The notes beneath the pieces were generated by a model. That model did not search any database. It saw only the letters and a program-made list of their open reading frames with translations, and was not told the origin of the DNA. Positions 1 to 19,186 of a stretch of 64,000 nucleotides of DNA are shown piece after piece. Numbering within the stretch: the first letter of the stretch is position 1; the number at the start of each line of letters is the position of its first letter. The stretch comes from Candidatus Omnitrophota bacterium (lineage in GTDB: Bacteria > Omnitrophota > Gorgyraeia > Gygaellales > Profunditerraquicolaceae). The position numbers and the translations under genes were made by a program. Location of the stretch: assembly GCA_018812825.1 (NCBI GenBank), contig JAHJCJ010000069.1, positions 3,825 through 67,824 on the forward strand, in the 5' to 3' direction.

Positions 1-326
1 CGGATTGCTGCGTACGGACAAACCATAACGCACATCCAGCAACCCACGCATCGATTCTCGTCATGCAGGACCATCCCGGTTGCAGCATCGCGCGTTAAGG
101 CCTTAGCCATACACGCAGACACGCATTTCTGTTCTTTGCAATGCCGGCAAGATACAGGATAATTCTCTCCCGTTGCTGCAAACACTGTGGTCCGGGGAAG
201 AGAAAGCTTTATTTCTTTAAGCGCCTCACTCAATTCACCGCTTTGCGAATGAGCAAGGGCACAGGATAACTCACAAGTCTTACACCCTACGCATTTTTTG
301 AAAACATAATATAAGTTTTTCATGGC
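1..326 (-). CDS. cooF: CooF-like 4Fe-4S ferredoxin of CO dehydrogenase, partial (C-terminus lies beyond the window start)
   Basis: Hand translation of the minus strand from the ATG at 326: MKNLYYVFKKCVGCKTCELSCALAHS...CRHCKEQKCVSACMAKAL...CVGCWMCVMVCPYAA. It shows CxxCxxCxxxC ferredoxin motifs. The frame stays open to the window edge, and the start codon sits immediately downstream of the cooS stop on the same strand. Confidence 0.6.
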
Positions 327-2231
327 TTACGGATACATCATGGGTTTAAGTTTTAACGCCTGACGTTTCTTATCGATATGTTCAATTATAATCTTTGCCA
401 TTTGTATAGGGTCAGGCTCAAACGCCCATTTCCCTCCGGTAACAGATTCCACCTCTTCGGTTACAAACTTAGTCAGGTTATGTGAACCATGCAAAGGATA
501 GGGATTGCCGAAAACCACCATTGCCCCGGAGGCAACAAAATACCAGCCAATAGCAATAGCCTTCTCAGACATCCATTCGGGTGCAGCGCCCGCCACCGGT
601 AATTCATCAAGACTTTTTCCGATACCGCCTTCTTTTACCATCTCGCAACAAGCAGTAAGTATGCGGGAGTTATCCACGCATGGCCCCAGATGCAGCACCG
701 GCGGACAACCCACAGCCGCGCAAATCTCCTGCAACCCTTTACCCGCGTATTTAAATGCGGCCTCAGGCACCAATAATCCTTCCTTGGCACAGGCAGTTGC
801 TGCACAGCCGGTCTGAACCACCAAAACATCTTTCCTGATAAGCTCTTTTACCAGGGTAATATGCGTTTCGCCGCTTTTTAGCTTAGGGTTATCGCACCCT
901 ACTACGCCGGCCACCCCGCGGATCCTTCCGGAAATAATTGCCTCATTTAACGGACTAAAAGTAGACCTATAGTTTCCGCCCAACATCTTAAAGATATATT
1001 CCGTGGTAAAACCGCCGACCAAATCGCGCGATTCTTTAGGAATATGCACGCGGGATTTATCGCGCTTGGGGAAATTCTCAATGGCCATAGTAATAATATT
1101 CCGGGCAATTTCCATCCCTTTTTCCTCATGGAACTCGATGTACACCGATCCGGGAAAATGCGCGCGGGGATTAGTAGAAACTACCTTCGTATGAAAACAA
1201 GAGGCGATACTCGGAAGAGAGGGCATGACGCACTGAAGATCAACGATCATCAGGTCTACTGCGCCGGTAATCAAAGCAAGCTCCTGCTGCAGGAAATTCC
1301 CGGCTACGCTAACTCCCTTTCGGCTTAATACCTCAAGAGCAGTACAACAAATCCCGGCGAGGTTAATACCGGAGGCACCCTTATCTTTGGCCAGTTGAAT
1401 AAGAGCAGGATCGACACTGGCAGTTGCAATAGCATCGGACAATATGGGCACGTGCCCATGGACAATAATATTTACCTGGTCATCTTTTAATACCCCTAGG
1501 TTTGCTTTTGCACGCAGCGGCTCAGGAGAACCAAAAAGAATATCGGATAAATCCGTGGCAATCATCGAACCGCCCCAACCATCGCTTAACGCCGTACGCA
1601 TCCCTTGCATCATGATAGAACGATAATCATTGTCAACGCCTATATTGGTACGGGCCAACGCCTCTGTCACTTCCCGGTCGATGCCCCGGGGCATGAGGTT
1701 ATTTACGCGCCAGATATCAATCTGCTTTTTAGGCGCCCGATTGGTAAGCATAAGCTCTCCGCTCTGCTGACCATACTCCTTAAAGAGACGCTCTGCTAAT
1801 TCCTCTGCGAGTTTATTGACATCTTTACCCGAGGTTTCCAAGCCATATTCTTTAGCAAAGCGCTCTAATTTTACCGCATCATTGATCTTATACCCTGGCG
1901 CTTTGCCGGTACTGGCTAAGAGCAGCGTTTTAATTATTTCGCGGCCATGATCATTATGACAAGCTGATCCGGCGGCAATATGACGCAAGAGGTTGCGCGC
2001 AGCAATTACATCGGCATCCGCTCCGCATACCCCACACTGCGCTCCCTCACCGAACGGATCAATCCTGCAAGGACCAAGATTACAGTTTTTACAGCATATA
2101 CCCAGCGTCCCAAAACCGCAGTGTGGCTCCTGTTTAAGTTTGCGGTCCCAAATAGTCTGGATAGAAGAATCTTCCGCAATCGCACGCATTTCTTTAGTCG
2201 CTAAATCTCCGGTAAAAATACGCTTGCTCAT
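327..2231 (-). CDS. cooS: Anaerobic Ni-dependent carbon monoxide dehydrogenase catalytic subunit
   Basis: 634 aa. The N-terminal cysteine cluster HCGFGTLGICCKNCNLGPCRI is typical of CooS/AcsA, and the length matches the family. It overlaps cooC by 4 bp, which suggests an operon. Confidence 0.9.
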   Translation of the reverse strand: MSKRIFTGDLATKEMRAIAEDSSIQTIWDRKLKQEPHCGFGTLGICCKNCNLGPCRIDPFGEGAQCGVCGADADVIAARNLLRHIAAGSACHNDHGREIIKTLLLASTGKAPGYKINDAVKLERFAKEYGLETSGKDVNKLAEELAERLFKEYGQQSGELMLTNRAPKKQIDIWRVNNLMPRGIDREVTEALARTNIGVDNDYRSIMMQGMRTALSDGWGGSMIATDLSDILFGSPEPLRAKANLGVLKDDQVNIIVHGHVPILSDAIATASVDPALIQLAKDKGASGINLAGICCTALEVLSRKGVSVAGNFLQQELALITGAVDLMIVDLQCVMPSLPSIASCFHTKVVSTNPRAHFPGSVYIEFHEEKGMEIARNIITMAIENFPKRDKSRVHIPKESRDLVGGFTTEYIFKMLGGNYRSTFSPLNEAIISGRIRGVAGVVGCDNPKLKSGETHITLVKELIRKDVLVVQTGCAATACAKEGLLVPEAAFKYAGKGLQEICAAVGCPPVLHLGPCVDNSRILTACCEMVKEGGIGKSLDELPVAGAAPEWMSEKAIAIGWYFVASGAMVVFGNPYPLHGSHNLTKFVTEEVESVTGGKWAFEPDPIQMAKIIIEHIDKKRQALKLKPMMYP

Positions 2232-2980
2232 TTAAGCCTCCGATTTAACTCCTTATAAATACCTAATAATTCTTTTTTAAGTTTATCGTCAAACACAAAT
2301 TTACCCCGGGCAGCCAAAAGATTCTGGCTAAACGACAAAAACCCTAAAGGTTCTGCGTTTAAATTCTTGCGCAAAAAATCCTCGTCCGCCTTATGTTGCA
2401 CTTTATTACCAATAAACCAGATCTTTTTTATCCCTAAAGCGCAGGCCAAAGAATACACATGTAAACCAGTACTAACTCCCAATTGCGTAGGCTCGGTAAT
2501 GATGAGAAAGGCATCTACCGCCTGCGCTGTCCCTCTTCCCAGATGCTCTGTGCCGGCGACCATATCCAAAAGCACCACTTCTTCATTTACCACCAAGTGA
2601 CTGATCAGGCGCTTGATAAATGCATTCTCCGGGCACAAACAACCGCCTTCCGCCTTTTGCACCTTCCCCATAACGATGAGCCTGATATTATTGTGCTGGG
2701 GGCAAAATTTTCCCGGGATATCTTCGACCTCGGGATTCAGCTTAAAATACCCGCTTGATTGAGTATCAACGGATGAAGTGCGTTTGGCAATTAATTCTTT
2801 CATTGCGCTTATGGGAACAATTTTTCCCGGCTCGGGAAAATCCAAAGCATACCCCAAATTCATGTCAGGGTCGCAATCAACGGCAATAACTGTTTTTTTA
2901 TCCTGCCCAAATAAAAGCGCTAGCCCGGCGGTGACTGTTGTTTTTCCTGAGCCGCCTTTTCCGGCTAAAGCAATTTTCAT
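2228..2980 (-). CDS. cooC: CODH nickel-insertion accessory ATPase (CooC/AcsF, MinD-like P-loop)
   Basis: 250 aa with the MinD-like Walker A motif KGGSGKTT. Adjacent to cooS, and its 3' end is coupled to fhs by a 4-bp overlap. Confidence 0.85.
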   Translation of the reverse strand: MKIALAGKGGSGKTTVTAGLALLFGQDKKTVIAVDCDPDMNLGYALDFPEPGKIVPISAMKELIAKRTSSVDTQSSGYFKLNPEVEDIPGKFCPQHNNIRLIVMGKVQKAEGGCLCPENAFIKRLISHLVVNEEVVLLDMVAGTEHLGRGTAQAVDAFLIITEPTQLGVSTGLHVYSLACALGIKKIWFIGNKVQHKADEDFLRKNLNAEPLGFLSFSQNLLAARGKFVFDDKLKKELLGIYKELNRRLK

Positions 2981-4671
2981 GATAACCCCACTATCCTACC
3001 TTCAGAATCTATGTCCATCTTCTCGCCAGCCGGATGCGATGGAAGCCCCGGCATCGTACGCATCTGTCCGCACAAAGGATATAAGAAACCCGCTCCCGCA
3101 GCCACCCGTATATCGCGGATGGGAATAGTAAATCCTGTGGGCCTGCCTTTTAATTCGGGATCATGGGAAAGAGATAAATGAGTCTTTGCCATGCAAATAG
3201 GAAATTTATTATAACCCAGTTTAGTATAAAGTTCAATCTTTTTCGTTGCCTCAGGAGAATATTCAACCTTTGCTGCCCCGTATATACTCTTGGCTATGCT
3301 TTCAATCTTTTGCATAATGGGCTCGTCTAGCGAATATAGGCATTTGAACTGACAGGGCTTGCTTGCAGCTTTTATCACTGCCCGGGCCAAGTCTATCCCA
3401 CCCTCTCCGCCTCTTGCCCAAACTTCGCTTACCACTGCATCATCACAGCCGGCAGCTAGAGCTTTTTTTCGCACCGCCTCTATTTCTTTATCCGTATCTG
3501 TGGTAAATTTGTTTATCGCCACTACTACAGGCAGACCAAACAACTTTATATTTTCAATATGTTTCTCCAAGTTTACCGCGCCCTGTTCAACCGCATCAAT
3601 ATTTTCCTTCAACAAATCTTCGCTCAACGGCTTTCCTGCTACCACTTTGAAACGCCCGCTATGCATCTTCAGTGCGCGGATAGAACAAACGATTACCGCT
3701 ACATTGGGCACTAATCCGCTAATACGGCATTTAATATTAAAAGCTTTTTCTGCGCCGCAATCAGCGCCAAAACCGCTCTCGGTAACCACATACTCGCTCA
3801 ATCTAAATGCGATCTTATCGGCAATGATAGAATTATTTCCGTGGGCTATGTTTGCAAACGGCCCTGCATGCACAAAACACGGGGTATGTTCAGTCGTCTG
3901 CATCAACGTAGGTTTGATTGCGTCTTTTAAAAGCACTGCCATTGCTCCGGCAACTTTTAAATCCTCGGTAGTAACCGGTTTTCCGTCATAGGTAAAAGCA
4001 ACCACAATCCTGCCTAAGCGCTGCCGTAAATCTTTGAAATCACTGGCAAGAGCAAGAATAGCCATTACCTCCGATGCCACGGTAATATCAAAACCACTTT
4101 GGCGCACGATACCATCTTCCGCAGACCCCTGGCCAATAGTAATATTACGTAAAGATCTGTCGCTGACATCCACAACTCTTCGCCAGAGTATCTCCGAAGG
4201 GTCTATATTTAATTTATTGCCCCTATAAAGAGAATTATCCATGAAAGCCGCGCAGAGATTATGCGCTAGGCCGACCGCATGCACATCGCCGGTCAAATGC
4301 AGGTTGAAATCCTCCATTGGCACAACCTGAGAATACCCGCCACCTGCAGCGCCGCCTTTTATGCCAAATACAGGCCCCAGCGATGGCTGCCGTATGCAGG
4401 TAGAAACCTTTTTGCCTAACTTGGCCAATCCTAGCGACAAACCAATCGTAGTAACAGTCTTGCCTTCGCCAAGCGGCGTTGGGGTTATGGCAGTGACATA
4501 TATATATTTGCCTTCGGGATTATCTTTTAACCGCTGTAAAACAGAAAGCTCAACCTTCGCCTTATACTTACCATAAAGCTCTAGCTCGTCCTCGCGAATA
4601 CCAATTTTCTCAGCGATCTCTAAAATAGGCCTTAGTTTTATTTCTCGGGAGATCTCGATATCAGTCTTCAT
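2977..4671 (-). CDS. fhs: Formate--tetrahydrofolate ligase (formyl-THF synthetase)
   Basis: 564 aa. The motif PTPLGEGKTVTTIGL and the length are diagnostic for Fhs. Confidence 0.95.
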   Translation of the reverse strand: MKTDIEISREIKLRPILEIAEKIGIREDELELYGKYKAKVELSVLQRLKDNPEGKYIYVTAITPTPLGEGKTVTTIGLSLGLAKLGKKVSTCIRQPSLGPVFGIKGGAAGGGYSQVVPMEDFNLHLTGDVHAVGLAHNLCAAFMDNSLYRGNKLNIDPSEILWRRVVDVSDRSLRNITIGQGSAEDGIVRQSGFDITVASEVMAILALASDFKDLRQRLGRIVVAFTYDGKPVTTEDLKVAGAMAVLLKDAIKPTLMQTTEHTPCFVHAGPFANIAHGNNSIIADKIAFRLSEYVVTESGFGADCGAEKAFNIKCRISGLVPNVAVIVCSIRALKMHSGRFKVVAGKPLSEDLLKENIDAVEQGAVNLEKHIENIKLFGLPVVVAINKFTTDTDKEIEAVRKKALAAGCDDAVVSEVWARGGEGGIDLARAVIKAASKPCQFKCLYSLDEPIMQKIESIAKSIYGAAKVEYSPEATKKIELYTKLGYNKFPICMAKTHLSLSHDPELKGRPTGFTIPIRDIRVAAGAGFLYPLCGQMRTMPGLPSHPAGEKMDIDSEGRIVGLS

Positions 4672-5235
4672 ACCTTACCTTTCTTTCCTAAAGTTTCTTG
4701 GGAATAACAGGAGCGATTGATAGTATAAAACTGCACCTAATCCAATCTGAGCAAACCAGCCCAGATGGGCTAAATTAGAAATTATCTTTCTATTTTTTAT
4801 TGTTTTATCCGCTTCGCCGAAATCGCAAGAAGAGGCGATGCAAAAAAACTTTATGTGTTGCGCTTCAGCTTTACTAAGACTCTTTCACTTACTGCATATT
4901 ATTATACCATATAACTTTAGTTTTTTTAACAAATTTCAGTTAAGCATATCAAGTATACATACAATTTATGTAATTATTGCATTTTATTGTAAAACAAATC
5001 CAGATTAATTCCTAAAAAAATCTGCATTTTCATAAGACTAAGGTATGTGCAAGAATATAACAAAATATTTTTGTTCATGAAACTGATTTGTTATATAACT
5101 TGATTAAAATGCAATCTTAAAATAAACCGTCTATTTCTTTTTTCTACCGATAATGAGTGCGGTGCCGAATTCATCGGCTGCCTAAGATGAAGATTTGCTT
5201 TTCTTGCCGATTACCGTAGAAATTCCTGACTCGTA

Positions 5236-5260
5236 AGCCGTAAAAAAATACGGCTTTTTT
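5236..5260 (+). terminator. Candidate rho-independent terminator oriented on the plus strand (agccgta-aaaaaaa-tacggct followed by T6)
   Basis: A 7-bp GC-containing stem is followed by TTTTTT on the plus strand. No plus-strand gene of 60 aa or more lies upstream, so this may terminate an unannotated small transcript. Confidence 0.3.
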
Positions 5261-5310
5261 GAAACGATAATACCAATCCCATAAGATCTTGAGATTTCAT
5301 CATAATTTTC

Positions 5311-6196: not shown

Positions 6197-6198
6197 TT

Positions 6199-10902: not shown

Positions 10903-10905
10903 TTT

Positions 10906-13900
10906 TTATCTGTCTGGCTTACCGATATCACACCTCAGGCATCGCCTGCTTTCTGAAAAAGCTTGTTTGGCAGTATATCCGCATTCAGCCTTAACGCGTT
11001 TCACTTTCTTCTGGTTATCCGTTGGGATATCCGATCTGCGCTTGGCAAAAGATAATACCCGATCAATTACTCCATCTCCTCCCAGATATTTATCTATTGA
11101 ACACGCTGCCTGCCTTCCGTCGGCAATTGCATCTATTACTGAACTCGGCCCGCGCACAAAATCACCTCCGGCATATACGCCGTTTATGTTGGTTGAAAGC
11201 GAGCGCCTGCAAATCTCTTTAATATCAATGCCGAAATCATTCTCCATCTCTTGGCCAATAGCCACAATAATTGTATCTGCCGATAATCTTATCGTGCTCT
11301 CAGGCTGAGCAACAACGCCCCTTCTTCCCGAACGGTCAACCTCAACCAACTGCATCTTTAAACATTCTAACTCTAGCTTTCCGTTAACACCTCCAATGCT
11401 ATGCGGAGAAAGCAGATATGAAATCTTTACCTTTTCCTTGAGCGCCAGTATAACCTCTTCGTTATGGACGGGCATTTCCTTCCTTGTCCTTCTGTAAATA
11501 ATATTGACGTCCTTTGCCCCGCATCTCCTGGCTGTGCGCGCCGCATCTATGGCGACATTTCCGCCGCCGATAACCAGCACTTTTTTACCTATGCGAAACT
11601 TTTTTCCTGAATTTATCTTGCGCAGAAAATCCAATGAATTAACCACTCCTTCTTTGTCAGCACTGGTAATCTTTAATTCTGAATTTTTCTGCCTGCCGCT
11701 AGCCACAAATACCGCGTCAAAACCTTCGGCAAATAATTCCTGCGGATGGTTCATAGTAACATTTGTTTTTATGGTAAAGGCAATTTTGCTTATGTAATTT
11801 ATTTCTTTGCGCAGAATACTTTTGGGTAGCCTGTAATCAGGAATGAGCGAAAGCATGCCTCCGGGTTTTTTCTGCGCCTCAAAAACAACAACCTCATGGC
11901 CTTTGAGGCCCAGAAAATAGGCTGCGGTCAATCCTGCAGGCCCAGCCCCAATTACCGCAACTTTTTTGCCCGTGGAAGGGGATTTATGAATATGCCTCTT
12001 CCATCCTGCGTCATCACATTCAGCTGCAAAACGTTTTAAGTCCCTAATGGCTATCGGTTCCTCCAAATCCTTTCTCAAACATTTCGCCTCGCAAGGATGA
12101 TAACAAACCCTGCCCAATACGCCCGGAAAAGGAACTTTCTCCCTGATCACAGCACATGCCTCAGTAGGCATACCGTCACTGAGCAATCCGACGTAATGAG
12201 GGACATCTATCCCTGCAGGACAGGTATCACAACAAGCAGCTTTGACTAAATCCTGACAAACCAACGCAGGGCATTTCTTATCTAAAATATGCGCGTGATA
12301 ATCTTCAATAAAATATTTAAGCGTAGTTAAGACAGGATTGGCTGCAGTCTGGCCCAAACCGCACAACGAAGCCTGTTTTACGGTTAAGGCAAGCTCTTTG
12401 AGCTGGGATAAGGTGTTCATATCGGCTTTACCCTGCGTGATTTTTTCCAGTATATTCAACAATTGTTTTGTACCCACGCGGCAGGGAGTGCATTTGCCGC
12501 AGGACTCTTTCTGCGTAAAACTTGAGAAATATTTTACCAGATCGACAACACAATTATCCTCATCGATGACAACCATGCCTCCGGAACCCATAATCGCACC
12601 TACACCCGTAAGCGAATCATAATCAATAGGCAAGTCCAATAATTCAGCAGGCAGGCATCCTCCGGAAGGCCCTCCAATTTGGAGCGCCTTGAACCTTTTG
12701 TCGTCTTTTATCCCGCCGCCGATATCATAAATAAGCTGTTTTAAAGTCATACCTAAAGGTATTTCAACTAAACCGGTATTCTTTATTTTACCAGTCAAGC
12801 AGAATGTCTTAGTGCCTTTGCTTTTTTCTGTCCCATACTGAGCAAACCACTCTGCGGAATTCTGCAGTATATGCGAGATATTAGCCAAAGTCTCTGCGTT
12901 ATTGATTACCGTGGGTTTACCCCTATATCCTTTTTCAATCGGAAAGGGCGGCCTAGGACGAGGCATGCCCCTTTTACCCTCAAGAGACGCAATCAGCGCG
13001 GTTTCTTCACCGCAGACAAAGGCACCCGCGCCTTCTTTGATCTGAATATCAAAAGAAAACTGCGACCCCAATATATTCTTACCCAGTAAATTAAATTCCT
13101 GCATTTGTTTAAGCGCGGCCCTTATTATCTCCAATGCCAGGGGGTATTCCGTGCGACAATAAACAAACCCTTCCTGGGCGCCGATGGCAAAACCGGCAAT
13201 AACCATTCCTTCTAAAACGGAATGCGGGTCACTTTCCAAGAGCGTGCGGTTCATAAATGCCCCGGGATCACCTTCATCGGCATTGCAGACTATATATTTA
13301 GACACTGCCTTTTCTTGCCGGCACATCTGCCATTTTAATCCCGTGGGAAAACCCGCCCCTCCTCTGCCGCGTAAACCCGAATTTTTTGCTTCCTCAATAA
13401 CCTTCTCCGGATCAAGAGCCAGCGCTTTATTCAATCCAGAATAACCTCCATGCGCTACATAATGATATAGATCCTGGGGATTTATAAGCCCGCAACGCTT
13501 GAGGATCCTTCTTACCTGAAGTTTCATAAAAGGTATCTCAGATAAGCGCGGGATATTGCCAAAGCCCTTACTACCGACAGTGCCAATAGTCAATCCTCTT
13601 GGCAGATTGCCGCTTGTAATATATTTTATAATTAGGGGGATATTCTTAGGTAAGACACTGCCGAAAGAGACGCGAGGATTTCCTGGCTTAATCACATCTA
13701 CTAAGGGTTCTAAATAACAAAGCCCCGCACAACCAACCGGGATTATGCTGAATTTAATCTTCTTGGCTATGAGCGCTTTTTCTATCTGGCTGCATATTGT
13801 ATCGGCGCCGGCGGATTTACCACAGGTAGCCATACCAAGGAAGACTAAAACCTTATCTGGCTCTTCAATCTTCCTCCAAGTCTCCAGGGCGATTTTTTCT

Positions 13901-13917
13901 AGCTCGGGAAAATTCAT
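10906..13917 (-). CDS. Fusion protein: thioredoxin-like 2Fe-2S domain + NuoF-like FMN/NADH 51-kDa module + 4Fe-4S ferredoxin + GltD/NfnB-like FAD/NAD(P)H oxidoreductase domain (FDH diaphorase beta subunit)
   Basis: 1003 aa. The NuoF-type motifs GRGGAGFPTG, CNADEGDPGAF and ESCGKCTPCR are present. The C-terminal half carries two Rossmann motifs: VAVIGAGPAGLTAAY (FAD) and VLVIGGGNVAIDAART (NAD(P)H). Confidence 0.85.
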   Translation of the reverse strand: MNFPELEKIALETWRKIEEPDKVLVFLGMATCGKSAGADTICSQIEKALIAKKIKFSIIPVGCAGLCYLEPLVDVIKPGNPRVSFGSVLPKNIPLIIKYITSGNLPRGLTIGTVGSKGFGNIPRLSEIPFMKLQVRRILKRCGLINPQDLYHYVAHGGYSGLNKALALDPEKVIEEAKNSGLRGRGGAGFPTGLKWQMCRQEKAVSKYIVCNADEGDPGAFMNRTLLESDPHSVLEGMVIAGFAIGAQEGFVYCRTEYPLALEIIRAALKQMQEFNLLGKNILGSQFSFDIQIKEGAGAFVCGEETALIASLEGKRGMPRPRPPFPIEKGYRGKPTVINNAETLANISHILQNSAEWFAQYGTEKSKGTKTFCLTGKIKNTGLVEIPLGMTLKQLIYDIGGGIKDDKRFKALQIGGPSGGCLPAELLDLPIDYDSLTGVGAIMGSGGMVVIDEDNCVVDLVKYFSSFTQKESCGKCTPCRVGTKQLLNILEKITQGKADMNTLSQLKELALTVKQASLCGLGQTAANPVLTTLKYFIEDYHAHILDKKCPALVCQDLVKAACCDTCPAGIDVPHYVGLLSDGMPTEACAVIREKVPFPGVLGRVCYHPCEAKCLRKDLEEPIAIRDLKRFAAECDDAGWKRHIHKSPSTGKKVAVIGAGPAGLTAAYFLGLKGHEVVVFEAQKKPGGMLSLIPDYRLPKSILRKEINYISKIAFTIKTNVTMNHPQELFAEGFDAVFVASGRQKNSELKITSADKEGVVNSLDFLRKINSGKKFRIGKKVLVIGGGNVAIDAARTARRCGAKDVNIIYRRTRKEMPVHNEEVILALKEKVKISYLLSPHSIGGVNGKLELECLKMQLVEVDRSGRRGVVAQPESTIRLSADTIIVAIGQEMENDFGIDIKEICRRSLSTNINGVYAGGDFVRGPSSVIDAIADGRQAACSIDKYLGGDGVIDRVLSFAKRRSDIPTDNQKKVKRVKAECGYTAKQAFSESRRCLRCDIGKPDR

Positions 13918-14333
13918 TTTATTTTTCTCAGAAGCAACAGGGCTTTCTTAGGCGTCGTTCTGCTATAGACCTTACTGTTGATAACAATAATAGGCCCCAA
14001 GGCACAACAGCCAAAACAGGCAACCCGCTCCAACCCAAACTTATTATCGCTGCTTACGCCTCCGCAACCAATACCCAGTTCATTCTCCAATGTCTCAAGG
14101 ACCTTTTCTGCGCCGCGCACATGACAAGCGGTGCCCAAACAAACCTTGATGCAATGTTTAGGCGCAGGGGTAAATCTGAATTGCGTATAGAATGTGGCAA
14201 CGCCGTAAATCTTACTCTTGGATATATCGAACTGGCTGGAGATCCGCGCTATGGCATGCTCAGTGATATATCCGGTATTTGCCTGGACCTCTTGCAATTT
14301 CGATATCAAATTAACCTGTGTTTTTTCGTCCAT
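13914..14333 (-). CDS. NuoE/HndA-like 24-kDa thioredoxin-fold 2Fe-2S subunit
   Basis: 139 aa with the NuoE-family cysteine pattern CLGTACHVRG...CFGCCALGP. It overlaps the NuoF fusion by 4 bp. Confidence 0.85.
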   Translation of the reverse strand: MDEKTQVNLISKLQEVQANTGYITEHAIARISSQFDISKSKIYGVATFYTQFRFTPAPKHCIKVCLGTACHVRGAEKVLETLENELGIGCGGVSSDNKFGLERVACFGCCALGPIIVINSKVYSRTTPKKALLLLRKIK

Positions 14334-14921
14334 TTAACTAGATTTTCCTCTGATTATTTCCAAGTCTCTTACGGTGTTGATATTGTAACATAACCACGGT
14401 GACAAAAATAATCTTTCTATCTGTCTCCGGGTTAAGAAAACCGTGCTGATGTATCTAAACAAACCCGAGACCCTCAATTTATTCTCTTTCAATCTGGCTT
14501 TTAAAACGGGAATGCATCTTTTAGAATATATTGCATGGAGATACTGGTATCTTTTATTTATAAAAGGCACGACTGCATCAGTGTTCTTGTCAATCTTTGA
14601 TTTCATATATTTAATTAAAGAGATACTTAAAAAAGGAATATCGCAGGCAGCTATAAAATTGTACCGGCCTTTAGAGCAAAGCAGCCCGGAGTATATCCCC
14701 CCCAGCGGGCCAAGATAAGGCATAATGTCAGTAATAACCTTTACCCCCTTAATGTGTTTAAATTTATCCGGCTTGTTCGTAACAATGATTATTTCTTTAA
14801 AATATCTTCTTAGCAGCCCAAGCTGTATTTCTATCAAATGGCGGCGGTTTATTTTCAGAAAGGCCTTATCCCGGCCGTGCATACGGCTGGCTTTCCCGCC
14901 GGCAAGAATTATCGCAGTCAT
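14334..14921 (-). CDS. mobA: Molybdenum cofactor guanylyltransferase
   Basis: 195 aa. The N-terminal ILAGGKASRMHGRDKAFL motif is the MobA nucleotide-binding signature. Confidence 0.85.
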   Translation of the reverse strand: MTAIILAGGKASRMHGRDKAFLKINRRHLIEIQLGLLRRYFKEIIIVTNKPDKFKHIKGVKVITDIMPYLGPLGGIYSGLLCSKGRYNFIAACDIPFLSISLIKYMKSKIDKNTDAVVPFINKRYQYLHAIYSKRCIPVLKARLKENKLRVSGLFRYISTVFLTRRQIERLFLSPWLCYNINTVRDLEIIRGKSS

Positions 14922-14922
14922 A

Positions 14923-16158
14923 TTAGTCTAAGAATCTAACTTTTACCTTTGAGCCCTTCTTAAAGAAAACTTGGCTTTCGCCTAAGATTACCAGGCTGTT
15001 TGCCAAAGACATAGGCTTTAACAAGGCTGAACCTTGCGGACCGGATAACCTGCTTAAGTAACGGCCATTCTGCCATCGAGTCCGTGCCCTTAAGAAATAA
15101 CGCATACCTTTTTTCTTTTGGATATCTTCTTCCAAGACCGCTTCTATCTCAATTTGTCTATCTTGTCTTTGACCGGTCATCTTCAATAAAACAGGGCGCA
15201 CGAATACCTCAAAGCTAATCATTCCGGAAACTGGATTTCCCGGAAGGCCGAAGATAAGTATTTTGCCGATATTGCCGAAAACCAATGGTTTGCCCGGACG
15301 CATAGCTACCTGCCAAAACTTTATCTTTGTCCCGATCTTAGCCAAGACATCTTTGACTAAATCAAACTCTCCTACTGAAACTCCGCCTGAAGTGAGTATT
15401 ATATCGCAATCAAACCCACGCCTAATCTTCTTTTCTAATTGACTGGGGATATCCTTGGCAATCCCTAAGTTCTTGGGGATACACCCGCATTTTACAATCT
15501 GGCTATATAATGTATAAGTATTAGAGCTTCTGACTTTTCCCGGAGCCAATCTTTGGCCTACGCCAACTAACTCATCCCCCGTAGCTAAAATAGCTATTTT
15601 TGGCCTGCGCACTACCTGAATCTTCGGTCTTCCCAGGCTTGCTAATATTCCAATATGACCACAGTTTAGCAGCGTACCCCTGGATATTATTAACTCTCCT
15701 TTTTTAATATCCTCTGCCTTCTTTCTTATATTTTCTCCTGCGGCTAACTCCTTATATACTTCTATCGATTCCCTCGGTTTATTTTGTATCTTCTTTGTAT
15801 ACTCAACCATAATAACGCTGTCAGCGCCTTTTGGAATGGTAGCGCCGGTCATGATTCTAATTGCCTGATTGTGGTCTATTGTCTTTTTGGCTATATCGCC
15901 TGCTTTAATGTCCTCAATCACTTCTAAAACTTTTGCATTATCGCTTGATGCGCAAATAGTATCAGACGACCTGACCGCGAATCCATCCATTGCAGAATTA
16001 TCAAATCCGGGGATATCAGTATCAGAATAAATATCTTCAGCCAAAACTCTTCCTAAGGCACCAGTCAGCCTTACGCTTTCTGATTCAATAGGTTCCACAG
16101 AATCAATAATTTTTTCTAATGCAGCATTAAACTTAATCATGTTTAATAAAAACCACAA
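14923..16158 (-). CDS. moeA: Molybdopterin molybdenumtransferase
   Basis: 411 aa with MoeA N-terminal and MoCF-biosynthesis-domain motifs (SAMDGFAV, GGVSVGEFD). Confidence 0.9.
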   Translation of the reverse strand: MWFLLNMIKFNAALEKIIDSVEPIESESVRLTGALGRVLAEDIYSDTDIPGFDNSAMDGFAVRSSDTICASSDNAKVLEVIEDIKAGDIAKKTIDHNQAIRIMTGATIPKGADSVIMVEYTKKIQNKPRESIEVYKELAAGENIRKKAEDIKKGELIISRGTLLNCGHIGILASLGRPKIQVVRRPKIAILATGDELVGVGQRLAPGKVRSSNTYTLYSQIVKCGCIPKNLGIAKDIPSQLEKKIRRGFDCDIILTSGGVSVGEFDLVKDVLAKIGTKIKFWQVAMRPGKPLVFGNIGKILIFGLPGNPVSGMISFEVFVRPVLLKMTGQRQDRQIEIEAVLEEDIQKKKGMRYFLRARTRWQNGRYLSRLSGPQGSALLKPMSLANSLVILGESQVFFKKGSKVKVRFLD

Positions 16159-16300
16159 CTCATTTACAACATTAAATTGGAGGGGAATTAAAATCCGGAG
16201 TTACCCGGAAGAAGTATCTTAACAGTCCAAGTCAGATGGGTTGCATTAGAGAATTAAAGGTTATTTTTTCATACTTATATGTACCAGCGTTTCGGTTTTA

Positions 16301-16699
16301 CTAAGACTCTGCCCCTTTTAATCCAAGTTGCATAAGTAGTTCGGCAATCTTTTCTCCATTATCAACGAATAAAACCAAACATACACCCACTGCTTTTCCG
16401 TCTTTAAATTTAACTGCTTCCGCCCTGCCCTCGCCTACGATCTCCTGAATTGGGCTGTCTATTATCTCAATATCCGCAGGAAGCTCTTTATCGGACTTGT
16501 CTAAACTTACAACCTTAACCCCAACTTTATATTTCTCATAAATAAATTCAGCCAAGCTAAAGGCTAATTTAGCTGGGCCATCAATACAAACAGTATCATT
16601 AATAAGATAATCATCTAATTTCTTAAAATCCTCCTCAGAGTTTAGTAAGACTACCCCTTTTTTCCTGGCTCCGGGTATCTGCGGTAAATTGGGCATCAT
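16301..16699 (-). CDS. Hypothetical protein (132 aa) between metF and moeA
   Basis: Intact ORF with an Ala-, Gly- and Val-rich segment, unlikely to be a shadow ORF. I recognise no family. It lacks the Cys4 zinc-ribbon pattern of the MetF partner protein MetV. Confidence 0.4.
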   Translation of the reverse strand: MMPNLPQIPGARKKGVVLLNSEEDFKKLDDYLINDTVCIDGPAKLAFSLAEFIYEKYKVGVKVVSLDKSDKELPADIEIIDSPIQEIVGEGRAEAVKFKDGKAVGVCLVLFVDNGEKIAELLMQLGLKGAES

Positions 16700-16772
16700 A
16701 TGTTTTTATTTAGTGAAATCATTGCACAAAGCGCAAGGGCCCTGCGGGTATTAGTAAACAGGGGTAAACCTT

Positions 16773-17645
16773 TTATATTAATCCACTGGCCTCTAAAACT
16801 CTAGGCACAACTTTATCCCAGCCAATAGACATGATATGGATGCCATTGCACATGGGTTTTAATTCCTTGATTAATCTTGCCGCGATTTCTACGGAAGTGG
16901 CTACTTTGTCTTTAGTTCCTTCCATCTCTTTTATCAGATTATCCGGTACATATACTCCCGCAACATTCTTATTCATATACCTTGCCATGCCGGCTGATTT
17001 TAATAAAACGATGCCAGCCAAAATCGTAGTCTTAAGATGTCTTATCTTGCTTAAGAAATTCTCAAATGTCTTTAAGTCGTAAACGGCTTGTGTTTGGAAA
17101 AAATCCGCTCCTGCTGCTATTTTCTTTTCCATCTTCATAATCTGCGGCTCTAATGGTTCTGAACCCGGATTAACTACTGCTCCCAAGCAGAATTTCGGCA
17201 GTGCTCCGTTTAATTTATTCCCTTTCATATCCAAACCAGATTCTAATTTCCTGGCTACCTGCAATAATTGTACTGAATCTAAATCGAAAACCGGCTTGGC
17301 TTCCGGATGGTCTCCTAAGCTTGGGTGGTCTCCGGTTAAAATTAAAACATTTTCGATTCCTAATGCTGCCGCGGATAATAAATCTGATTGCAGAGCTAGG
17401 CGGTTACGATCACGGCAGGTCAACTGGTAAATTGGCTCAAAGCCTTTTTGCTTAAGTAGGCAACTTACCGCTAAAGATCCCAATCGCATTACTGAACTCT
17501 GTAAATCAGTTACATTTATCGCATCTACCCGGGTACGAATAAGTTCTGCATCTTGAAGCAACTCATTAGTCTCGATCCCCTTGGCCGGGCCGACCTCAGA
17601 GGTAAGTAAAAATTTTCCTGCCTGAATTTTCTCTTTAAATGTCAT
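16773..17645 (-). CDS. metF: 5,10-methylenetetrahydrofolate reductase
   Basis: 290 aa TIM-barrel MTHFR family. Sits in the C1 cluster next to folD and fchA. Confidence 0.85.
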   Translation of the reverse strand: MTFKEKIQAGKFLLTSEVGPAKGIETNELLQDAELIRTRVDAINVTDLQSSVMRLGSLAVSCLLKQKGFEPIYQLTCRDRNRLALQSDLLSAAALGIENVLILTGDHPSLGDHPEAKPVFDLDSVQLLQVARKLESGLDMKGNKLNGALPKFCLGAVVNPGSEPLEPQIMKMEKKIAAGADFFQTQAVYDLKTFENFLSKIRHLKTTILAGIVLLKSAGMARYMNKNVAGVYVPDNLIKEMEGTKDKVATSVEIAARLIKELKPMCNGIHIMSIGWDKVVPRVLEASGLI

Positions 17646-17802
17646 TATATTTTAAATCCTAACGCGTCTGCCCTGCCTTATTTCTCGCAGGGTCCCTTGC
17701 TCAAACCAAAATAAACCATCCGCTAAATATCAATTTCTTAAAATATAAACTTGGTATTCTTTGAGCAGGCATAATCCCGAGAGCAAAATATCAAAATGGC
17801 AC

Positions 17803-18651
17803 CTATTGCCGCGCTTTAGCCGCCTCAACTAAATTACGCATTAACATTGTTACGGTTAAAGGCCCCACGCCTCCAGGGACAGGCGTAATGTAGCTTGCGC
17901 GTTTTTCAGCAGCCTCAAATTCTACATCACCCACGATTTTATCTGCGACTCTATTTATACCTACATCAATAACAACGGCTCCTTCTTTAATCCATTCGCC
18001 TTTAACGAGGCCGGCCTTGCCTACAGCTACAATCAAAATCTCAGCGCCCCTTACATGCTCTTCCAATTTTCCTGCTTTACTAGTTCCAATATGGCATACC
18101 GTAACTGTCGCAAATTTATCCAGCAATAAAAGCGCCAAAGGCTTACCCACTATTTCACTATGCCCCACAACTACAACCTCTTTGCCATATAAATCAATCC
18201 CGCCAGAATTGATCAGTTCCATTATCGAAGCCACAGTACATGGAATAAGTTTTGCCTTGCCGAATAAAATCTTTCCAATATTTTCCGGATGCATGCCTTC
18301 AATATCTTTCTCAGGAGCAATAAATTGGCTGATCTTTTTATAATCTATTGCCGCTGGAAGCGGCATCTGAATAATAATACCATCCACGGCCTTATCTACG
18401 TTAAGCTTAAGAATAAGATCTATCAAAACCTGTTCAGTAATATCCTTGTCCAGCTGGAACAGTTTATAAACTATGCTCAGATTCTCAGCGGCTTTAGCCT
18501 GAGACTTCACATAAGCAGCTGCAGCGGAATTATCTCCTACCAAAATACTGGCTAAAACCGGAGCTTGCTTTAAATCTTGTACCTGGTTCTTTATCTTTTT
18601 TTTAATTTCTTCAGCAACAGCTTTACCCTCTAATAATTTTGCCAACGCCAA
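17803..18651 (-). CDS. folD: Bifunctional methylene-THF dehydrogenase / methenyl-THF cyclohydrolase
   Basis: 282 aa with typical FolD motifs (ILVGDNSAAAAYV, IIQMPLP, VVVGHSEIVGKP). Confidence 0.9.
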   Translation of the reverse strand: MALAKLLEGKAVAEEIKKKIKNQVQDLKQAPVLASILVGDNSAAAAYVKSQAKAAENLSIVYKLFQLDKDITEQVLIDLILKLNVDKAVDGIIIQMPLPAAIDYKKISQFIAPEKDIEGMHPENIGKILFGKAKLIPCTVASIMELINSGGIDLYGKEVVVVGHSEIVGKPLALLLLDKFATVTVCHIGTSKAGKLEEHVRGAEILIVAVGKAGLVKGEWIKEGAVVIDVGINRVADKIVGDVEFEAAEKRASYITPVPGGVGPLTVTMLMRNLVEAAKARQ

Positions 18652-19186
18652 CCTCCATATTCTTACGAATCTTCTGAATAACCTTATTCCTCTGATCTAA
18701 CTCTTTATTTATTACTTTAGTTAGCTTCTCCTGACCCAGCCTCTTTAAATTAATCTCTACATTAAAACAAGCGGAAACAAAAGCTGACTCTAGAAAAACC
18801 GCCGCTACAGCAACATCGCTGATTAAATTGGTGTTACCTTTTTTTATTAATGGCGGGCATAATTTTGCTGCTTCGCAACAGAGCCTCGCCAACATCAACG
18901 GGACATCCAATGCCTTACGTATATCCTTGCTTCGATAGGCAACTACATCTAAATCCACCAGTCCCAGGAAATCTTTTTTTAATTTATCTGACTTTGTTAA
19001 AATTTCCTTTAACTCTGGCTCAAATGCAGTATATTTAGACTTACCCAAAGTAAAGTTAACCACCATGCTGATCAGGCTTGCTCCCATCGCCGCATTCAAT
19101 GCTGCGGCAGATCCTCCTCCGGGAGCAGCAAGCTTAGCGGAAAGATCATCCAGATATTTAGTTAGATTTTGATTTTTATATTCCAT
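18623..19186 (-). CDS. fchA: Methenyltetrahydrofolate cyclohydrolase (FchA / cyclodeaminase-type)
   Basis: 187 aa. The PGGGSAAALNAAMGASL motif belongs to the formiminotransferase-cyclodeaminase / FchA family. Overlaps folD by 29 bp. Confidence 0.75.
   Translation of the reverse strand: MEYKNQNLTKYLDDLSAKLAAPGGGSAAALNAAMGASLISMVVNFTLGKSKYTAFEPELKEILTKSDKLKKDFLGLVDLDVVAYRSKDIRKALDVPLMLARLCCEAAKLCPPLIKKGNTNLISDVAVAAVFLESAFVSACFNVEINLKRLGQEKLTKVINKELDQRNKVIQKIRKNMEVGVGKIIRG

What the first reader, a model, noticed from the sequence alone, without database searches (positions are those of the whole stretch)
1..19186. Single co-directional 19-kb supercluster uniting the Wood-Ljungdahl methyl branch, a formate dehydrogenase, the complete Moco biosynthesis set and a CODH
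In transcription order the cluster reads fchA-folD-metF-(132 aa)-moeA-mobA-nuoE-like-nuoF/gltD fusion-fdhA-moaA-moaB-chrA-like-moaC-MOSC-(spacer)-fhs-cooC-cooS-cooF. Every step from CO2 to methyl-THF has its gene here: formate dehydrogenase, Fhs, FchA, FolD and MetF. The molybdenum cofactor machinery lies in between, and a CooS-type CODH follows. No acsB/acsCDE is in the window; it may lie beyond the cooF edge. Such a compact arrangement is unusual and suggests co-regulation as one C1 module.
Basis: partly seen in the sequence, partly recalled or inferred. Interest (0 to 1): 0.5.

Follow-up and report, generated by a model that had tools for sequence, protein, structure and literature searches.

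The report
Mosaic acetyl-CoA pathway locus in Omnitrophota
This is the carbon-fixing (Wood-Ljungdahl) gene region of an uncultured Omnitrophota bacterium, assembled in evolution by inserting a portable formate-dehydrogenase/molybdenum-cofactor cassette and a foreign CO-dehydrogenase/acetyl-CoA-synthase block into a conserved backbone; it is a lineage-specific variant of a known pathway, not a new system.

Summary
All 18 gene calls and their order are confirmed.

- **Moco set is incomplete:** moaD, moaE, moeB and fdhD are absent from the whole window.
- **Co-directionality says nothing:** all ~62 genes in the 64 kb lie on the minus strand.
- **Probably not one operon:** gaps of 157, 73, 142 and 639 bp separate tightly packed blocks, and fchA starts 5 bp after the housekeeping gene yraN.

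A 99.975 % identical MAG contig continues past coordinate 1 with cooF, a FAD/NAD oxidoreductase and acsB, so this is an acetyl-CoA-pathway locus. No acsC, acsD or acsE was found.

About 40 related Omnitrophota loci share the backbone trmD-rplS-rnhB-yraN-[fhs]-fchA-folD-metF-[cooS-cooF-FNOR]-acsB. None has FDH or Moco genes inside it.

- The 132-aa ORF is a stump of the lineage's own acsB. Its last 14 residues match the first 14 of the close relatives' AcsB.
- The FDH/Moco cassette occurs as a unit in other genomic contexts.
- The downstream acsB is of another clade's type.
- A sister species shares the arrangement.

The FDH partner, a NuoF-GltD fusion, is widespread and uncharacterised. It is built from the same modules as NfnABC/Stn.

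Published Omnitrophota surveys report the pathway without FDH. Interest is moderate.

The parts
1..323 (-). cooF (N-terminal 107 aa of a 149-aa 4Fe-4S electron-transfer protein; the gene runs off the window edge)
   Evidence: Ferredoxin-type Fe-S subunit hits. The full 149-aa gene is seen on L001.
327..2231 (-). cooS, Ni-CODH catalytic subunit (634 aa)
   Evidence: TIGR01702, 635 bits against a cut-off of 478. Nearest relatives are L019/L024 at 67-70 %.
2228..2980 (-). cooC-type Ni-insertion ATPase (250 aa)
   Evidence: CbiA/ParA P-loop hits. A CxC motif (GGCLCPEN) is present in the sequence. The start overlaps fhs by 4 bp and the end overlaps cooS by 4 bp.
2977..4671 (-). fhs, formate-tetrahydrofolate ligase (564 aa)
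   Evidence: NF010030, 828 bits against a cut-off of 652. In relatives that have fhs in this locus it lies between yraN and fchA.
4672..5310 (-). AT-rich (32 % GC) non-coding spacer; the probable promoter region of the fhs-cooC-cooS-cooF-FNOR-acsB unit
   Evidence: Promoter-like TTAAAA-17-TATAAT with an upstream TG at 4929-4901. Sequence read. No protein or DNA similarity to any locus other than the same species, and no Rfam hit.
5311..5766 (-). MOSC-domain protein (151 aa)
   Evidence: PF03473. Matches the C-terminal half of the NF011069 MoaC/MOSC model.
5744..6196 (-). moaC, cyclic pyranopterin monophosphate synthase
   Evidence: TIGR00581, 178.6 bits against a cut-off of 141.5.
6199..6720 (-). 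single short CHR (chromate-ion-transporter family) membrane protein; candidate oxyanion (Mo/W) transporter (inference)
   Evidence: PF02417, 147 bits. Conserved inside the cassette in L085 and L086.
6721..7221 (-). moaB/mog-type molybdopterin adenylyltransferase
   Evidence: TIGR00177, 130.8 bits against a cut-off of 85.
7203..8186 (-). moaA, GTP 3',8-cyclase
   Evidence: TIGR02666, 368 bits against a cut-off of 284.
8188..10902 (-). fdhA, Mo/W-bisPGD formate dehydrogenase catalytic subunit with a NuoG-like N-terminal Fe-S domain; cysteine type
   Evidence: TIGR01591, 865 bits against a cut-off of 666. Active site CARLC373H374APSV plus the conserved PLRGQNNVQGACDM motif. The full length matches R. 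capsulatus FdsA 6tg9_A at 692 bits.
10906..13917 (-). NuoF(BfuB-like)-GltD fusion (1003 aa): FMN/NADH module joined to a FAD/NADPH module
   Evidence: Pfam Complex1_51K, NADH_4Fe-4S, Fer4_20 and Pyr_redox_2. Residues 26-561 match NfnB 9bov_B at 672 bits. Residues 560-970 match NfnA 9bov_A residues 102-523 at 338 bits.
13914..14333 (-). NuoE/BfuC-like [2Fe-2S] subunit (139 aa)
   Evidence: PF01257, 149 bits.
14334..14921 (-). mobA, Moco guanylyltransferase
   Evidence: MobA models NF001457 and TIGR02665 match at E 1e-27 to 1e-34, below their cut-offs.
14923..16158 (-). moeA, molybdopterin molybdotransferase; first gene of the FDH/Moco cassette
   Evidence: NF007960, 402 bits, slightly below the cut-off of 440. 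Gene order of the cassette is conserved in L085, L086 and L089.
16194..16209 (-). terminator-like hairpin between orf132 and moeA, at the insertion junction
   Evidence: TCCGGGTAACTCCGGA followed by TTTTAATT. Consensus match only.
16301..16699 (-). orf132: stump of the lineage's native long acsB. It consists of a degenerate FNOR NAD-binding subdomain plus the first ~13 codons of the AcsB core.
   Evidence: 60-73 % identical to the N-terminal extension of the 843-861-aa AcsB in L064, L052, L072 and L067. The C-terminal IAELLMQLGLKGAES aligns with the AcsB N-termini of L092 and L064. BLASTP E = 1e-6 to FNOR residues 110-235, with GxGxxG lost.
16773..17645 (-). metF, methylene-THF reductase (290 aa; no metV next to it)
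   Evidence: PF02219, 122 bits.
17803..18651 (-). folD, bifunctional methylene-THF dehydrogenase/cyclohydrolase
   Evidence: NF008058, 325 bits against a cut-off of 355, plus many other FolD models.
18623..19186 (-). fchA, methenyl-THF cyclohydrolase; starts 5 bp after yraN
   Evidence: PF04961, 150 bits; NF045657.
19192..20168 (-). yraN and rnhB: housekeeping genes of the conserved backbone, contiguous with fchA
   Evidence: NCBIfam. The order trmD-rplS-rnhB-yraN-fchA is conserved in relatives.

Best explanation
The region is the Wood-Ljungdahl (reductive acetyl-CoA pathway) locus of an uncultured Candidatus Omnitrophota bacterium. It is an evolutionary mosaic, not a single designed operon.

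**Backbone.** A phylum-conserved backbone sits among housekeeping genes: trmD-rplS-rnhB-yraN-fchA-folD-metF-acsB-TPR-polA.

**What was inserted.** In this lineage about 20 kb was inserted at the 5' end of the native acsB.
1. A portable ~11-kb cassette: moeA-mobA-nuoE-nuoF/gltD-fdhA-moaA-moaB-CHR-moaC-MOSC.
2. A block fhs-cooC-cooS-cooF-FNOR-acsB whose acsB is of another Omnitrophota clade's type.

The native acsB survives only as the 132-aa stump.

**Function (inferred from family membership).**
- FdhA is a cysteine-type Mo/W-bisPGD enzyme. It is wired through NuoE and a NuoF-GltD flavoprotein with separate NADH and NADPH sites, and interconverts CO2 and formate with pyridine nucleotides. Ferredoxin may also take part.
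- Fhs, FchA/FolD and MetF carry formate to methyl-THF.
- CooS, matured by CooC and wired through CooF and FNOR, interconverts CO2 and CO.
- AcsB, just outside the window, makes or cleaves acetyl-CoA.
- The corrinoid protein (AcsC/AcsD) and the methyltransferase AcsE must be encoded elsewhere. So must MoaD, MoaE and MoeB.

**Transcription.** It most likely runs as at least three units: yraN-fchA-folD (+metF), moeA...MOSC, and fhs...acsB. The direction of flux (acetogenic or acetate-oxidising) cannot be read from sequence.
For: - **Gene identities:**
- **Extension beyond coordinate 1:** L001 is 99.975 % identical over 12,231 bp and carries cooF-FNOR-acsB.
- **Backbone conservation:** FDH and Moco genes are absent from the backbone in about 40 Omnitrophota loci.
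- **Segment-wise nearest relatives:**
  - ruvB to orf132: L064/L067/L071-73, 70-94 %
  - moeA to MOSC: L085/L086
  - cooC-cooS: L019/L024
  - cooF-FNOR-acsB: L005-L013, 76-79 %
- **Foreign acsB:** it is only 58 % identical to AcsB of the housekeeping-closest clade (L064, L092).
- **Scar:** orf132 equals the N-terminal extension plus the first ~13 residues of native AcsB.
- **Cassette as a unit elsewhere:** L085 and L086.
- **Same junction in independent sequences:** a sister species (L089/L090) and independent assemblies (L093-L095).
- **FdhA active site intact**.
- **Tight packing within blocks, gaps between them:** coordinates; promoter- and terminator-like sites.
- **Literature:** Seymour et al. 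2023 report the Omnitrophota pathway lacking FDH, and in part CooS/F (PMC10066038).
Against: - No acsC, acsD or acsE could be tied to this genome.
- Composition hardly separates inserted from native genes. GC3 is 0.36-0.51 in inserted genes and 0.31-0.45 in native ones.
- Promoter and terminator scans are at background level: 42 found against 39.6 expected. The operon breaks therefore rest mainly on gap sizes.
- The order and number of insertion events are not resolved.
- The per-gene nearest-relative pattern rests on identities, not on trees.
Confidence: 0.75

Rival explanations
1. One reading: a single co-regulated operon-like 'C1 supercluster' selected as one unit.
For: All genes are co-directional. 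Every CO2-to-methyl-THF step is present. The arrangement is kept in a sister species.
Against: - The whole 64 kb is co-directional.
- Four intergenic gaps of 73-639 bp fall exactly at the evolutionary seams. A terminator-like hairpin lies at the orf132/moeA seam and a promoter-like site lies in the 639-bp spacer.
- fchA starts 5 bp after yraN, so the upstream end is not insulated from housekeeping genes.
- The segments have different nearest relatives.
Confidence: 0.15
2. The FdhA-like trio is not a formate dehydrogenase. It would be an Nfn/Stn-type NADH/NADPH/ferredoxin transhydrogenase with a vestigial pterin domain.
For: The same modules occur as in NfnABC/Stn. The NuoF part scores 650-672 bits to NfnB/StnB, and the GltD part matches NfnA/StnC. 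StnC was annotated as FDH but had no formate activity (PMC7483475).
Against: - FdhA passes the FDH-alpha equivalog cut-off.
- It keeps the Cys-His active site, the catalytic Arg motif and the Mo-proximal 4Fe-4S motif.
- It aligns end to end with FdsA.
- It is flanked by eight Moco-related genes.
- In NfnA the pterin site is incomplete (PMC11829005).
Confidence: 0.07
3. A formate/CO oxidation module unconnected to acetyl-CoA synthesis.
For: No acsB, acsC, acsD or acsE lies inside the window. CooS-CooF-FNOR units are thought to oxidise CO in other bacteria (PMC6344411).
Against: - acsB directly follows FNOR with an 8-bp overlap on the identical contig.
- In relatives the same cooS-cooF-FNOR-acsB run continues into acsC-RACo-acsF-acsD-acsE (L096).
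- Methyl-branch genes are adjacent.
Confidence: 0.04
4. The mosaic is an assembly chimera of several Omnitrophota populations.
For: The source is metagenomic. Contigs break at a tandem repeat after acsB. Segments differ in their nearest relatives.
Against: Each seam is spanned by independent assemblies.
- metF-orf132-moeA: L093, L094, L095, and the sister species L089 and L090.
- MOSC-spacer-fhs: L001 and L002.
- cooF-FNOR-acsB: L001-L003.
Confidence: 0.02

Closest known systems
Omnitrophota (Velamenicoccia/Gorgyraia) Wood-Ljungdahl pathway as surveyed by Seymour et al. 2023 (PMC10066038)
   Same: Same phylum. Same methyl-branch and acs genes. Variants exist with and without CooS/F. The conserved backbone seen in about 40 loci here matches that picture.
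   Different: That survey reports the pathway as lacking formate dehydrogenase (K05299/K15022). This lineage and a sister species carry an FDH plus Moco cassette inside the locus. They also carry a replaced acsB and a stump of the native one.
Acetogen Wood-Ljungdahl gene clusters (for example Sporomusa ovata SOV_1c07560-07730 with stnABC next to metVF; clostridial fhs-fchA-folD-metV-metF-acs clusters)
   Same: Methyl-branch genes are clustered with CODH/ACS genes. A NuoE/NuoF/GltD/NuoG-type redox complex is encoded beside them.
   Different: No metV, acsC, acsD or acsE is present here. FDH and Moco genes lie inside the cluster. In S. ovata the FDH is encoded elsewhere, and the neighbouring complex (Stn) has no FDH activity.
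NfnABC / Stn (Nfn-Bfu) electron-bifurcating transhydrogenase (PDB 9bov, 8oh5, 9n5u)
   Same: It has a NuoE-like subunit. Its BfuB-like subunit has the thioredoxin-like N-domain and the conserved AHIxDKKCPAxxC segment. It also has a GltD/NfnL-like NADPH module and a NuoG/FDH-like module.
   Different: Here the GltD module is fused to the C-terminus of the B subunit, in place of the two-[4Fe-4S] ferredoxin domain. It is not inserted in the A subunit. The pterin domain is catalytically intact.
NAD+-dependent FdsABG formate dehydrogenase (R. capsulatus 6tg9, C. necator 6vw7)
   Same: FdhA aligns over its full length with FdsA at 692 bits. NuoE-like and NuoF-like partners are present.
   Different: The NuoF part resembles bifurcating BfuB much more (650-672 bits against 383-434). 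It carries an extra GltD NADPH module. No FdsC/FdhD or FdsD gene is present.
CooS-CooF-FNOR CO-dehydrogenase units (Geelhoed 2016; Inoue 2019, PMC6344411)
   Same: cooS, cooF and a Pyr_redox_2/Rubredoxin_C flavoprotein lie in a row.
   Different: Here, and in many Omnitrophota, the trio is immediately followed by acsB. In some relatives the whole acs operon follows (L096).
Wood-Ljungdahl clusters of other uncultured phyla carrying the same nuoE-nuoF/gltD-fdhA trio (L087; L088, whose fusion protein P0075 is labelled Candidatus Bipolaricaulota)
   Same: The same three-gene FDH unit (52-54 % identity for the fusion) lies next to acs, metF and folD genes.
   Different: Those loci have no Moco genes adjacent. 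One has an FdhA split into two ORFs, possibly a selenocysteine codon. The gene orders differ.

Membership tests
Wood-Ljungdahl (acetyl-CoA) pathway gene set | Formate dehydrogenase | tested here: met
   TIGR01591, 865 bits against a cut-off of 666. The Cys-His active site and Arg motif are intact.
Wood-Ljungdahl (acetyl-CoA) pathway gene set | Fhs, methenyl-THF cyclohydrolase, methylene-THF dehydrogenase and MetF | tested here: met
   NF010030 at 828 bits; FchA PF04961; FolD models; MTHFR PF02219.
Wood-Ljungdahl (acetyl-CoA) pathway gene set | Acetyl-CoA synthase AcsB | tested here: met
   Not in the window. It lies two genes past coordinate 1 on the 99.975 % identical contig L001 (726 aa; CODH_A_N, CdhC, ACS_CODH_B_C).
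Wood-Ljungdahl (acetyl-CoA) pathway gene set | Ni-CODH (AcsA/CooS) with a CooC-type maturase | tested here: met
   TIGR01702, 635 bits against a cut-off of 478. P-loop ATPase with a CxC motif.
Wood-Ljungdahl (acetyl-CoA) pathway gene set | Corrinoid Fe-S protein AcsC/AcsD and methyltransferase AcsE | tested here: inconclusive
   No homologue in the window (tblastn). They do not follow acsB in the closest relatives. The search for this genome's AcsC among 120 top hits failed. They are present in other Omnitrophota (L038, L096).
Complete bis-MGD molybdenum cofactor biosynthesis set | MoaA and MoaC (cPMP), Mog/MoaB, MoeA, MobA | tested here: met
   The moaA, moaC and MoCF-domain models pass their cut-offs. 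The MoeA and MobA models match strongly but below cut-off.
Complete bis-MGD molybdenum cofactor biosynthesis set | MPT synthase MoaD/MoaE and its activator MoeB | tested here: not met
   None of the ~62 window proteins hits these families. The 132-aa ORF is not MoaE.
Complete bis-MGD molybdenum cofactor biosynthesis set | FDH-specific sulfurtransferase FdhD/FdsC | tested here: not met
   Absent from the window. A MOSC-domain protein is present and might substitute (inference).
Single operon | Short intergenic distances throughout, with no internal promoter or terminator | tested here: not met
   Gaps of 157, 73, 142 and 639 bp separate blocks whose genes are at most 3 bp apart or overlap. A terminator-like hairpin lies at 16209-16194 and a promoter-like site at 4929-4901. 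No transcript data are available.
Bfu-type electron-bifurcating enzymes (Schut et al. 2022) | BfuC (NuoE-like, 2Fe-2S) and a BfuB core with FMN and the B1 cluster | tested here: met
   PF01257, PF01512 and PF10589. 672 bits to NfnB 9bov_B, including the AHIxDKKCPAxxC segment.
Bfu-type electron-bifurcating enzymes (Schut et al. 2022) | C-terminal two-[4Fe-4S] (B3/B4) ferredoxin domain of BfuB, reported essential for bifurcation | tested here: not met
   The alignment to BfuB stops at residue ~561 of the query, which is residue 530 of 584 in the chain. A GltD module follows instead. A close homologue, P0062, keeps the ferredoxin domain.
Nfn-Bfu / Stn transhydrogenase | GltD-like NADPH module inside the A (NuoG-like) subunit, with a degenerate pterin site | tested here: not met
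   The GltD module is on the B subunit. The pterin domain is intact.
CooS-CooF-FNOR unit | CooS, CooF-type ferredoxin and FAD-dependent NAD(P) oxidoreductase encoded contiguously | tested here: met
   L001 genes at 10001-13626; Pyr_redox_2 plus Rubredoxin_C.

The most novel reading that the evidence does not exclude
The NuoE / NuoF-GltD / FdhA trio may be a catalytically active formate-dehydrogenase cousin of the NfnABC/Stn bifurcating transhydrogenases. One soluble complex would link CO2/formate to NADH, NADPH and possibly ferredoxin.

It is associated with Wood-Ljungdahl clusters in at least three kinds of uncultured bacteria: Omnitrophota, a relative labelled Bipolaricaulota, and L087. It has never been characterised biochemically.

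Its acquisition, together with a foreign CODH/ACS block, would have converted a formate- and CO-dependent partial pathway into a complete CO2-fixing one in an Omnitrophota lineage.
Probability: 0.3. Interest if true: 0.65.

Novelty: new variant of a known kind. Interest (0 to 1): 0.4.

Why it matters
Omnitrophota are uncultured, mostly ultra-small bacteria. Their acetyl-CoA pathway has been described as lacking formate dehydrogenase, which implies dependence on external formate.

This locus shows a lineage that has FDH, most of its cofactor machinery, a CODH and ACS in one place. It also preserves a molecular scar showing how the locus was assembled, by cassette insertion and gene replacement.

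It also points to a widespread, untested FDH architecture with two pyridine-nucleotide sites. That architecture may explain how CO2 reduction to formate is driven in several uncultured phyla that use this pathway. It may also show where the 'dead' FDH-like domain of NfnABC/Stn came from.

Tried and rejected
- **Riboswitches:** Rfam at gathering threshold on the whole window gave 0 hits. At E ≤ 1 on 1-20.6 kb the only hit was a spurious PYLIS match. There is no Moco or THF riboswitch.
- **Spacer:** blastx and blastn of the 639-bp spacer found no pseudogene or mobile-element remnant.
- **Composition as evidence of transfer:** GC and GC3 do not discriminate.
- **CFeSP genes in the same genome:**
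  - tblastn of relatives' acsC, RACo, acsD and acsE against the window was negative.
  - A profile search for AcsC followed by accession and sample checks was run. No candidate came from GCA_018824865.1 or from the Logan runs that hold this species.
  - The look-up by orf132 returned the same 21-kb contig. It did not return the 84.6-kb contig recorded for this protein.
- **Seymour et al. supplements:** they do not list this assembly.
- **orf132 as MoaD, MoaE or MetV:** rejected, with no family hit and clear homology to the AcsB N-terminal extension.
- **Selenocysteine FdhA:** rejected. The ORF is continuous and has Cys373.

Full report
**Observation**

ORF listing shows that every substantial gene in the 64-kb window lies on the minus strand. 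That is about 62 genes; the plus-strand ORFs are all shadows of them. GC skew is negative throughout.

The strongest assignments are:
- Fhs: 828 bits against a cut-off of 652.
- FdhA: TIGR01591, 865 against 666.
- CooS: TIGR01702, 635 against 478.
- MoaA: 368 against 284.
- MoaC: 179 against 142.

FdhA is a cysteine enzyme, with active site CARLC373H374APSV. It keeps the conserved Arg motif and the proximal 4Fe-4S motif. There is no in-frame stop.

**Corrections to the observation**

1. The Moco set is not complete. MoaD, MoaE, MoeB and FdhD are missing from the cluster and from the remaining 45 kb. That remainder encodes only housekeeping and LPS functions: rplS, trmD, tgt, queA, queH, ruvB, scpA, trpS, infB, nusA, rimP, proS, ispG, rseP, dxr, cdsA, uppS, purA, serA, clpP, tig, lptB/C and the kds and heptose genes.
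2. Co-directionality cannot mark the cluster, because the whole window is co-directional.
3. The cluster is not evenly compact.
   - Genes are at most 3 bp apart or overlapping within [rnhB-yraN-fchA-folD], within [moeA...MOSC] (ten genes) and within [fhs-cooC-cooS-cooF].
   - Gaps of 157, 73, 142 and 639 bp separate folD|metF|orf132|moeA and MOSC|fhs.
   - A terminator-like hairpin lies in the orf132-moeA gap.
   - A TG-extended −10 promoter-like site lies in the 32 %-GC spacer. Overall these scans are at background frequency.
   - No riboswitch was found.

**Beyond coordinate 1**

The window's CooS is encoded on four public contigs. The longest is JAHJFP010000089.1 of MAG GCA_018824865.1, labelled 'Candidatus Omnitrophica bacterium'. 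It is 99.975 % identical to the window over 12,231 bp.

That contig continues with the full 149-aa cooF, then a 423-aa Pyr_redox_2/Rubredoxin_C flavoprotein, then a 726-aa AcsB. The flavoprotein is the 'FNOR' of CooS-CooF-FNOR units (PMC6344411). The genes overlap by 4 and 8 bp.

All three contigs that reach this point end in a perfect 44-bp tandem repeat about 115 bp after acsB.

**Comparative context**

A scan of GTDB species representatives with AcsB returned 80 loci, mostly Candidatus Omnitrophota.

Mapping the window's proteins onto them shows a conserved backbone: trmD-rplS-rnhB-yraN-[fhs]-fchA-folD-metF-[cooC]-[cooS-cooF-FNOR]-acsB. It is followed by a TPR protein, polA, glgA, coaE, rho, rpmE, prfA and prmC (Pfam).

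None of the roughly 40 Omnitrophota loci that contain both metF and acsB has FDH or Moco genes between them. acsC-RACo-acsF-acsD-acsE follow acsB only in more distant clades (L038, L069, L096). No homologue of these genes is in the window.

**The locus is a mosaic**

Nearest relatives differ from segment to segment:
- ruvB through orf132 are closest to L064, L067 and L071-73 (trmD 80-88 %, rplS 83-94 %). In that clade metF is followed directly by a long (843-861 aa) acsB.
- moeA to MOSC match only L085 and L086.
- cooC-cooS are closest to L019 and L024.
- cooF-FNOR-acsB are closest to L005-L013 (AcsB 76-79 %).
- AcsB is only 58 % identical to that of the housekeeping-closest clade (L064, L092).

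**The 132-aa ORF is the key**

- It is 60-73 % identical to the N-terminal extension of the long AcsB proteins.
- That extension is a degenerate copy of the NAD-binding subdomain of FNOR. BLASTP gives E = 1e-6 to residues 110-235, and the GxGxxG motif is replaced by DGPAKLA.
- The last 14 residues of orf132 (IAELLMQLGLKGAES) align with the first residues of the native-type AcsB core: L092 MSELLVQMGTKGAQA, and L064 ...MADLLLQLGTKGTDA.

orf132 is therefore the stump of the lineage's own acsB, cut about 13 codons into the core.

**Spread of the arrangement and of the cassette**

A sister species has the same metF-orf131-moeA-...-fdhA-moaA arrangement (L089/L090; 82-97 % identity in backbone genes). 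The event therefore predates their split.

Independent assemblies span each seam, which argues against chimerism.

The FDH/Moco cassette also occurs as a unit elsewhere:
- L085: 88-90 % for NuoF-GltD and FdhA; followed by epimerase, phosphonate-binding and two-component-system genes.
- L086: 64-72 %; lies between nadE and yjeF/tilS/ftsH.
- The order of moaB, CHR, moaC and MOSC is shuffled in both.

Composition does not discriminate the segments.

**The formate dehydrogenase**

FdhA aligns end to end with R. capsulatus FdsA (692 bits).

Its flavoprotein partner is a 1003-aa fusion.
- Residues 26-561 resemble the B subunits of bifurcating Bfu enzymes far more than the non-bifurcating FdsB. Scores are NfnB 9bov_B 672 bits, NiFe-Bfu 7t2r_B 668 and Stn 8oh5_B 650, against 383-434 for FdsB.
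- This part includes the thioredoxin-like N-domain and the AHIxDKKCPAxxC segment.
- At residue ~560 the usual two-[4Fe-4S] ferredoxin domain is replaced by a GltD/NfnL-type FAD/NADPH module. That ferredoxin domain is reported to be essential for bifurcation (PMC11829005). The GltD module matches NfnA residues 102-523 at 338 bits.
- A homologue 87 % identical over residues 1-559 keeps the ferredoxin domain (P0062).

The complex thus contains all the modules of NfnABC/Stn, but with a live pterin site and a different fusion topology. In Stn the FDH-like domain is inactive (PMC7483475).

Fusions of this type are numerous. All but one of the top 120 hits are 978-1106 aa long. The named ones come from Dehalococcoidia, Chloroflexi, Bipolaricaulota and candidate division KD3-62. 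The same nuoE-nuoF/gltD-fdhA trio lies inside Wood-Ljungdahl clusters in L087 and L088.

I infer a soluble CO2 reductase/formate dehydrogenase linked to NAD(P)H. Whether it bifurcates with ferredoxin is unresolved.

**Comparison with the literature**

Seymour et al. 2023 (PMC10066038) describe Omnitrophota acetogenic pathways as lacking FDH. In many species they also lack AcsA/CooS/F, and the most complete version adds only CooS/F.

The two backbone types seen here (metF-acsB, and metF-cooS-cooF-FNOR-acsB) correspond to those categories. By its housekeeping genes, the window's lineage belongs with the CooS-less type. It has acquired FDH, most Moco genes, fhs, cooC-cooS-cooF-FNOR and a foreign acsB.

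This is a new variant of a known pathway locus, not a new kind of system.

**Limits**

- No acsC, acsD or acsE could be assigned to this genome despite a targeted attempt.
- The direction of flux, the metal (Mo or W), the nucleotide specificity and the operon structure are all inferred.
- The evolutionary scenario rests on identity patterns and the orf132 scar, not on trees.

Noticed in passing
window 1-64000: All ~62 genes of the 64-kb window are on the minus strand, and GC skew is negative in every 2-kb bin (-0.13 to -0.27). The strand bias is extreme. There is no tRNA gene and no Rfam hit in the whole 64 kb.
   Followed up: partly
L001:15916-16055 (about 115 bp downstream of acsB, beyond window coordinate 1): A perfect 44-bp tandem repeat (GAAGGATTGGTGTGCCGCTTTCTGCGTTTCACCCAATCTAAGTG), at least 3.2 copies, runs to the contig end. 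All three contigs that reach this point stop there. It is absent from the window and from the other 94 loci.
   Followed up: partly
window 22809-23405 (-): A 198-aa ORF with very low GC (0.288, against ~0.42 locally) and no Pfam or NCBIfam hit. It sits in a 1.2-kb interval between queA and tgt, which are directly adjacent in relative L071. Probably a small lineage-specific insertion.
   Followed up: no
window 6199-6720 (-); also L085:9407-9928 and L086:18174-18695: A single short (173-aa) chromate-ion-transporter-family gene is a conserved member of the FDH/Moco cassette in all three genomic contexts. No modABC or tupABC lies nearby. It is a candidate molybdate/tungstate transporter. From general knowledge, short CHR proteins are normally encoded in pairs.
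   Followed up: no
L064:9614-12181, and L048, L067, L071-73 and others; L092:3959-4390: Many Omnitrophota have a long AcsB (843-861 aa). Its N-terminal ~135 aa is a degenerate NAD-binding subdomain of the CODH-associated FNOR. In L092 the same piece is a separate 143-aa gene upstream of a 726-aa acsB. It looks like a relic of a lost cooS-cooF-FNOR unit kept next to acsB.
   Followed up: partly
P0062 (Logan contig, 615 aa): A NuoF-like protein 87 % identical to residues 1-559 of the window's fusion ends in the canonical two-[4Fe-4S] ferredoxin domain instead of GltD. This is a recent domain swap between a HydB/BfuB-type and a GltD-fused form.
   Followed up: partly
L038:6924-9998 and L039:6523-9604: In two related loci nuoE, a ~600-aa NuoF-like gene and a 253-aa NuoG-N-terminal-like Fe-S protein sit between cooF and acsB, in place of FNOR. 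This may be a CODH-linked Bfu-type module.
   Followed up: no
window 33262-34527 and 35798-37060 (-): Two paralogous TadA/VirB11-family secretion ATPases (421 and 420 aa) flank proS. Tad-type pili are among the symbiosis-associated traits reported for Omnitrophota.
   Followed up: no
L092:909-2786: An Mrr-type restriction endonuclease gene (625 aa) is inserted between folD, which is called there as two fragments, and metF in a relative's Wood-Ljungdahl backbone. The backbone tolerates insertions at its intergenic seams.
   Followed up: no
L087:11091-13871: The FdhA next to the NuoF-GltD fusion is called as two ORFs (375 and 546 aa). This may be an in-frame TGA selenocysteine codon, in contrast to the cysteine enzyme in the window.
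   Followed up: no
cluster of P0121 (orf132): The identical 132-aa protein has two NCBI accessions (MBU0548018.1 and MBU1923608.1). It is recorded on a contig of 84,628 bp that the context look-up did not return. A second, longer assembly of this species exists and may hold the sequence past acsB.
   Followed up: partly
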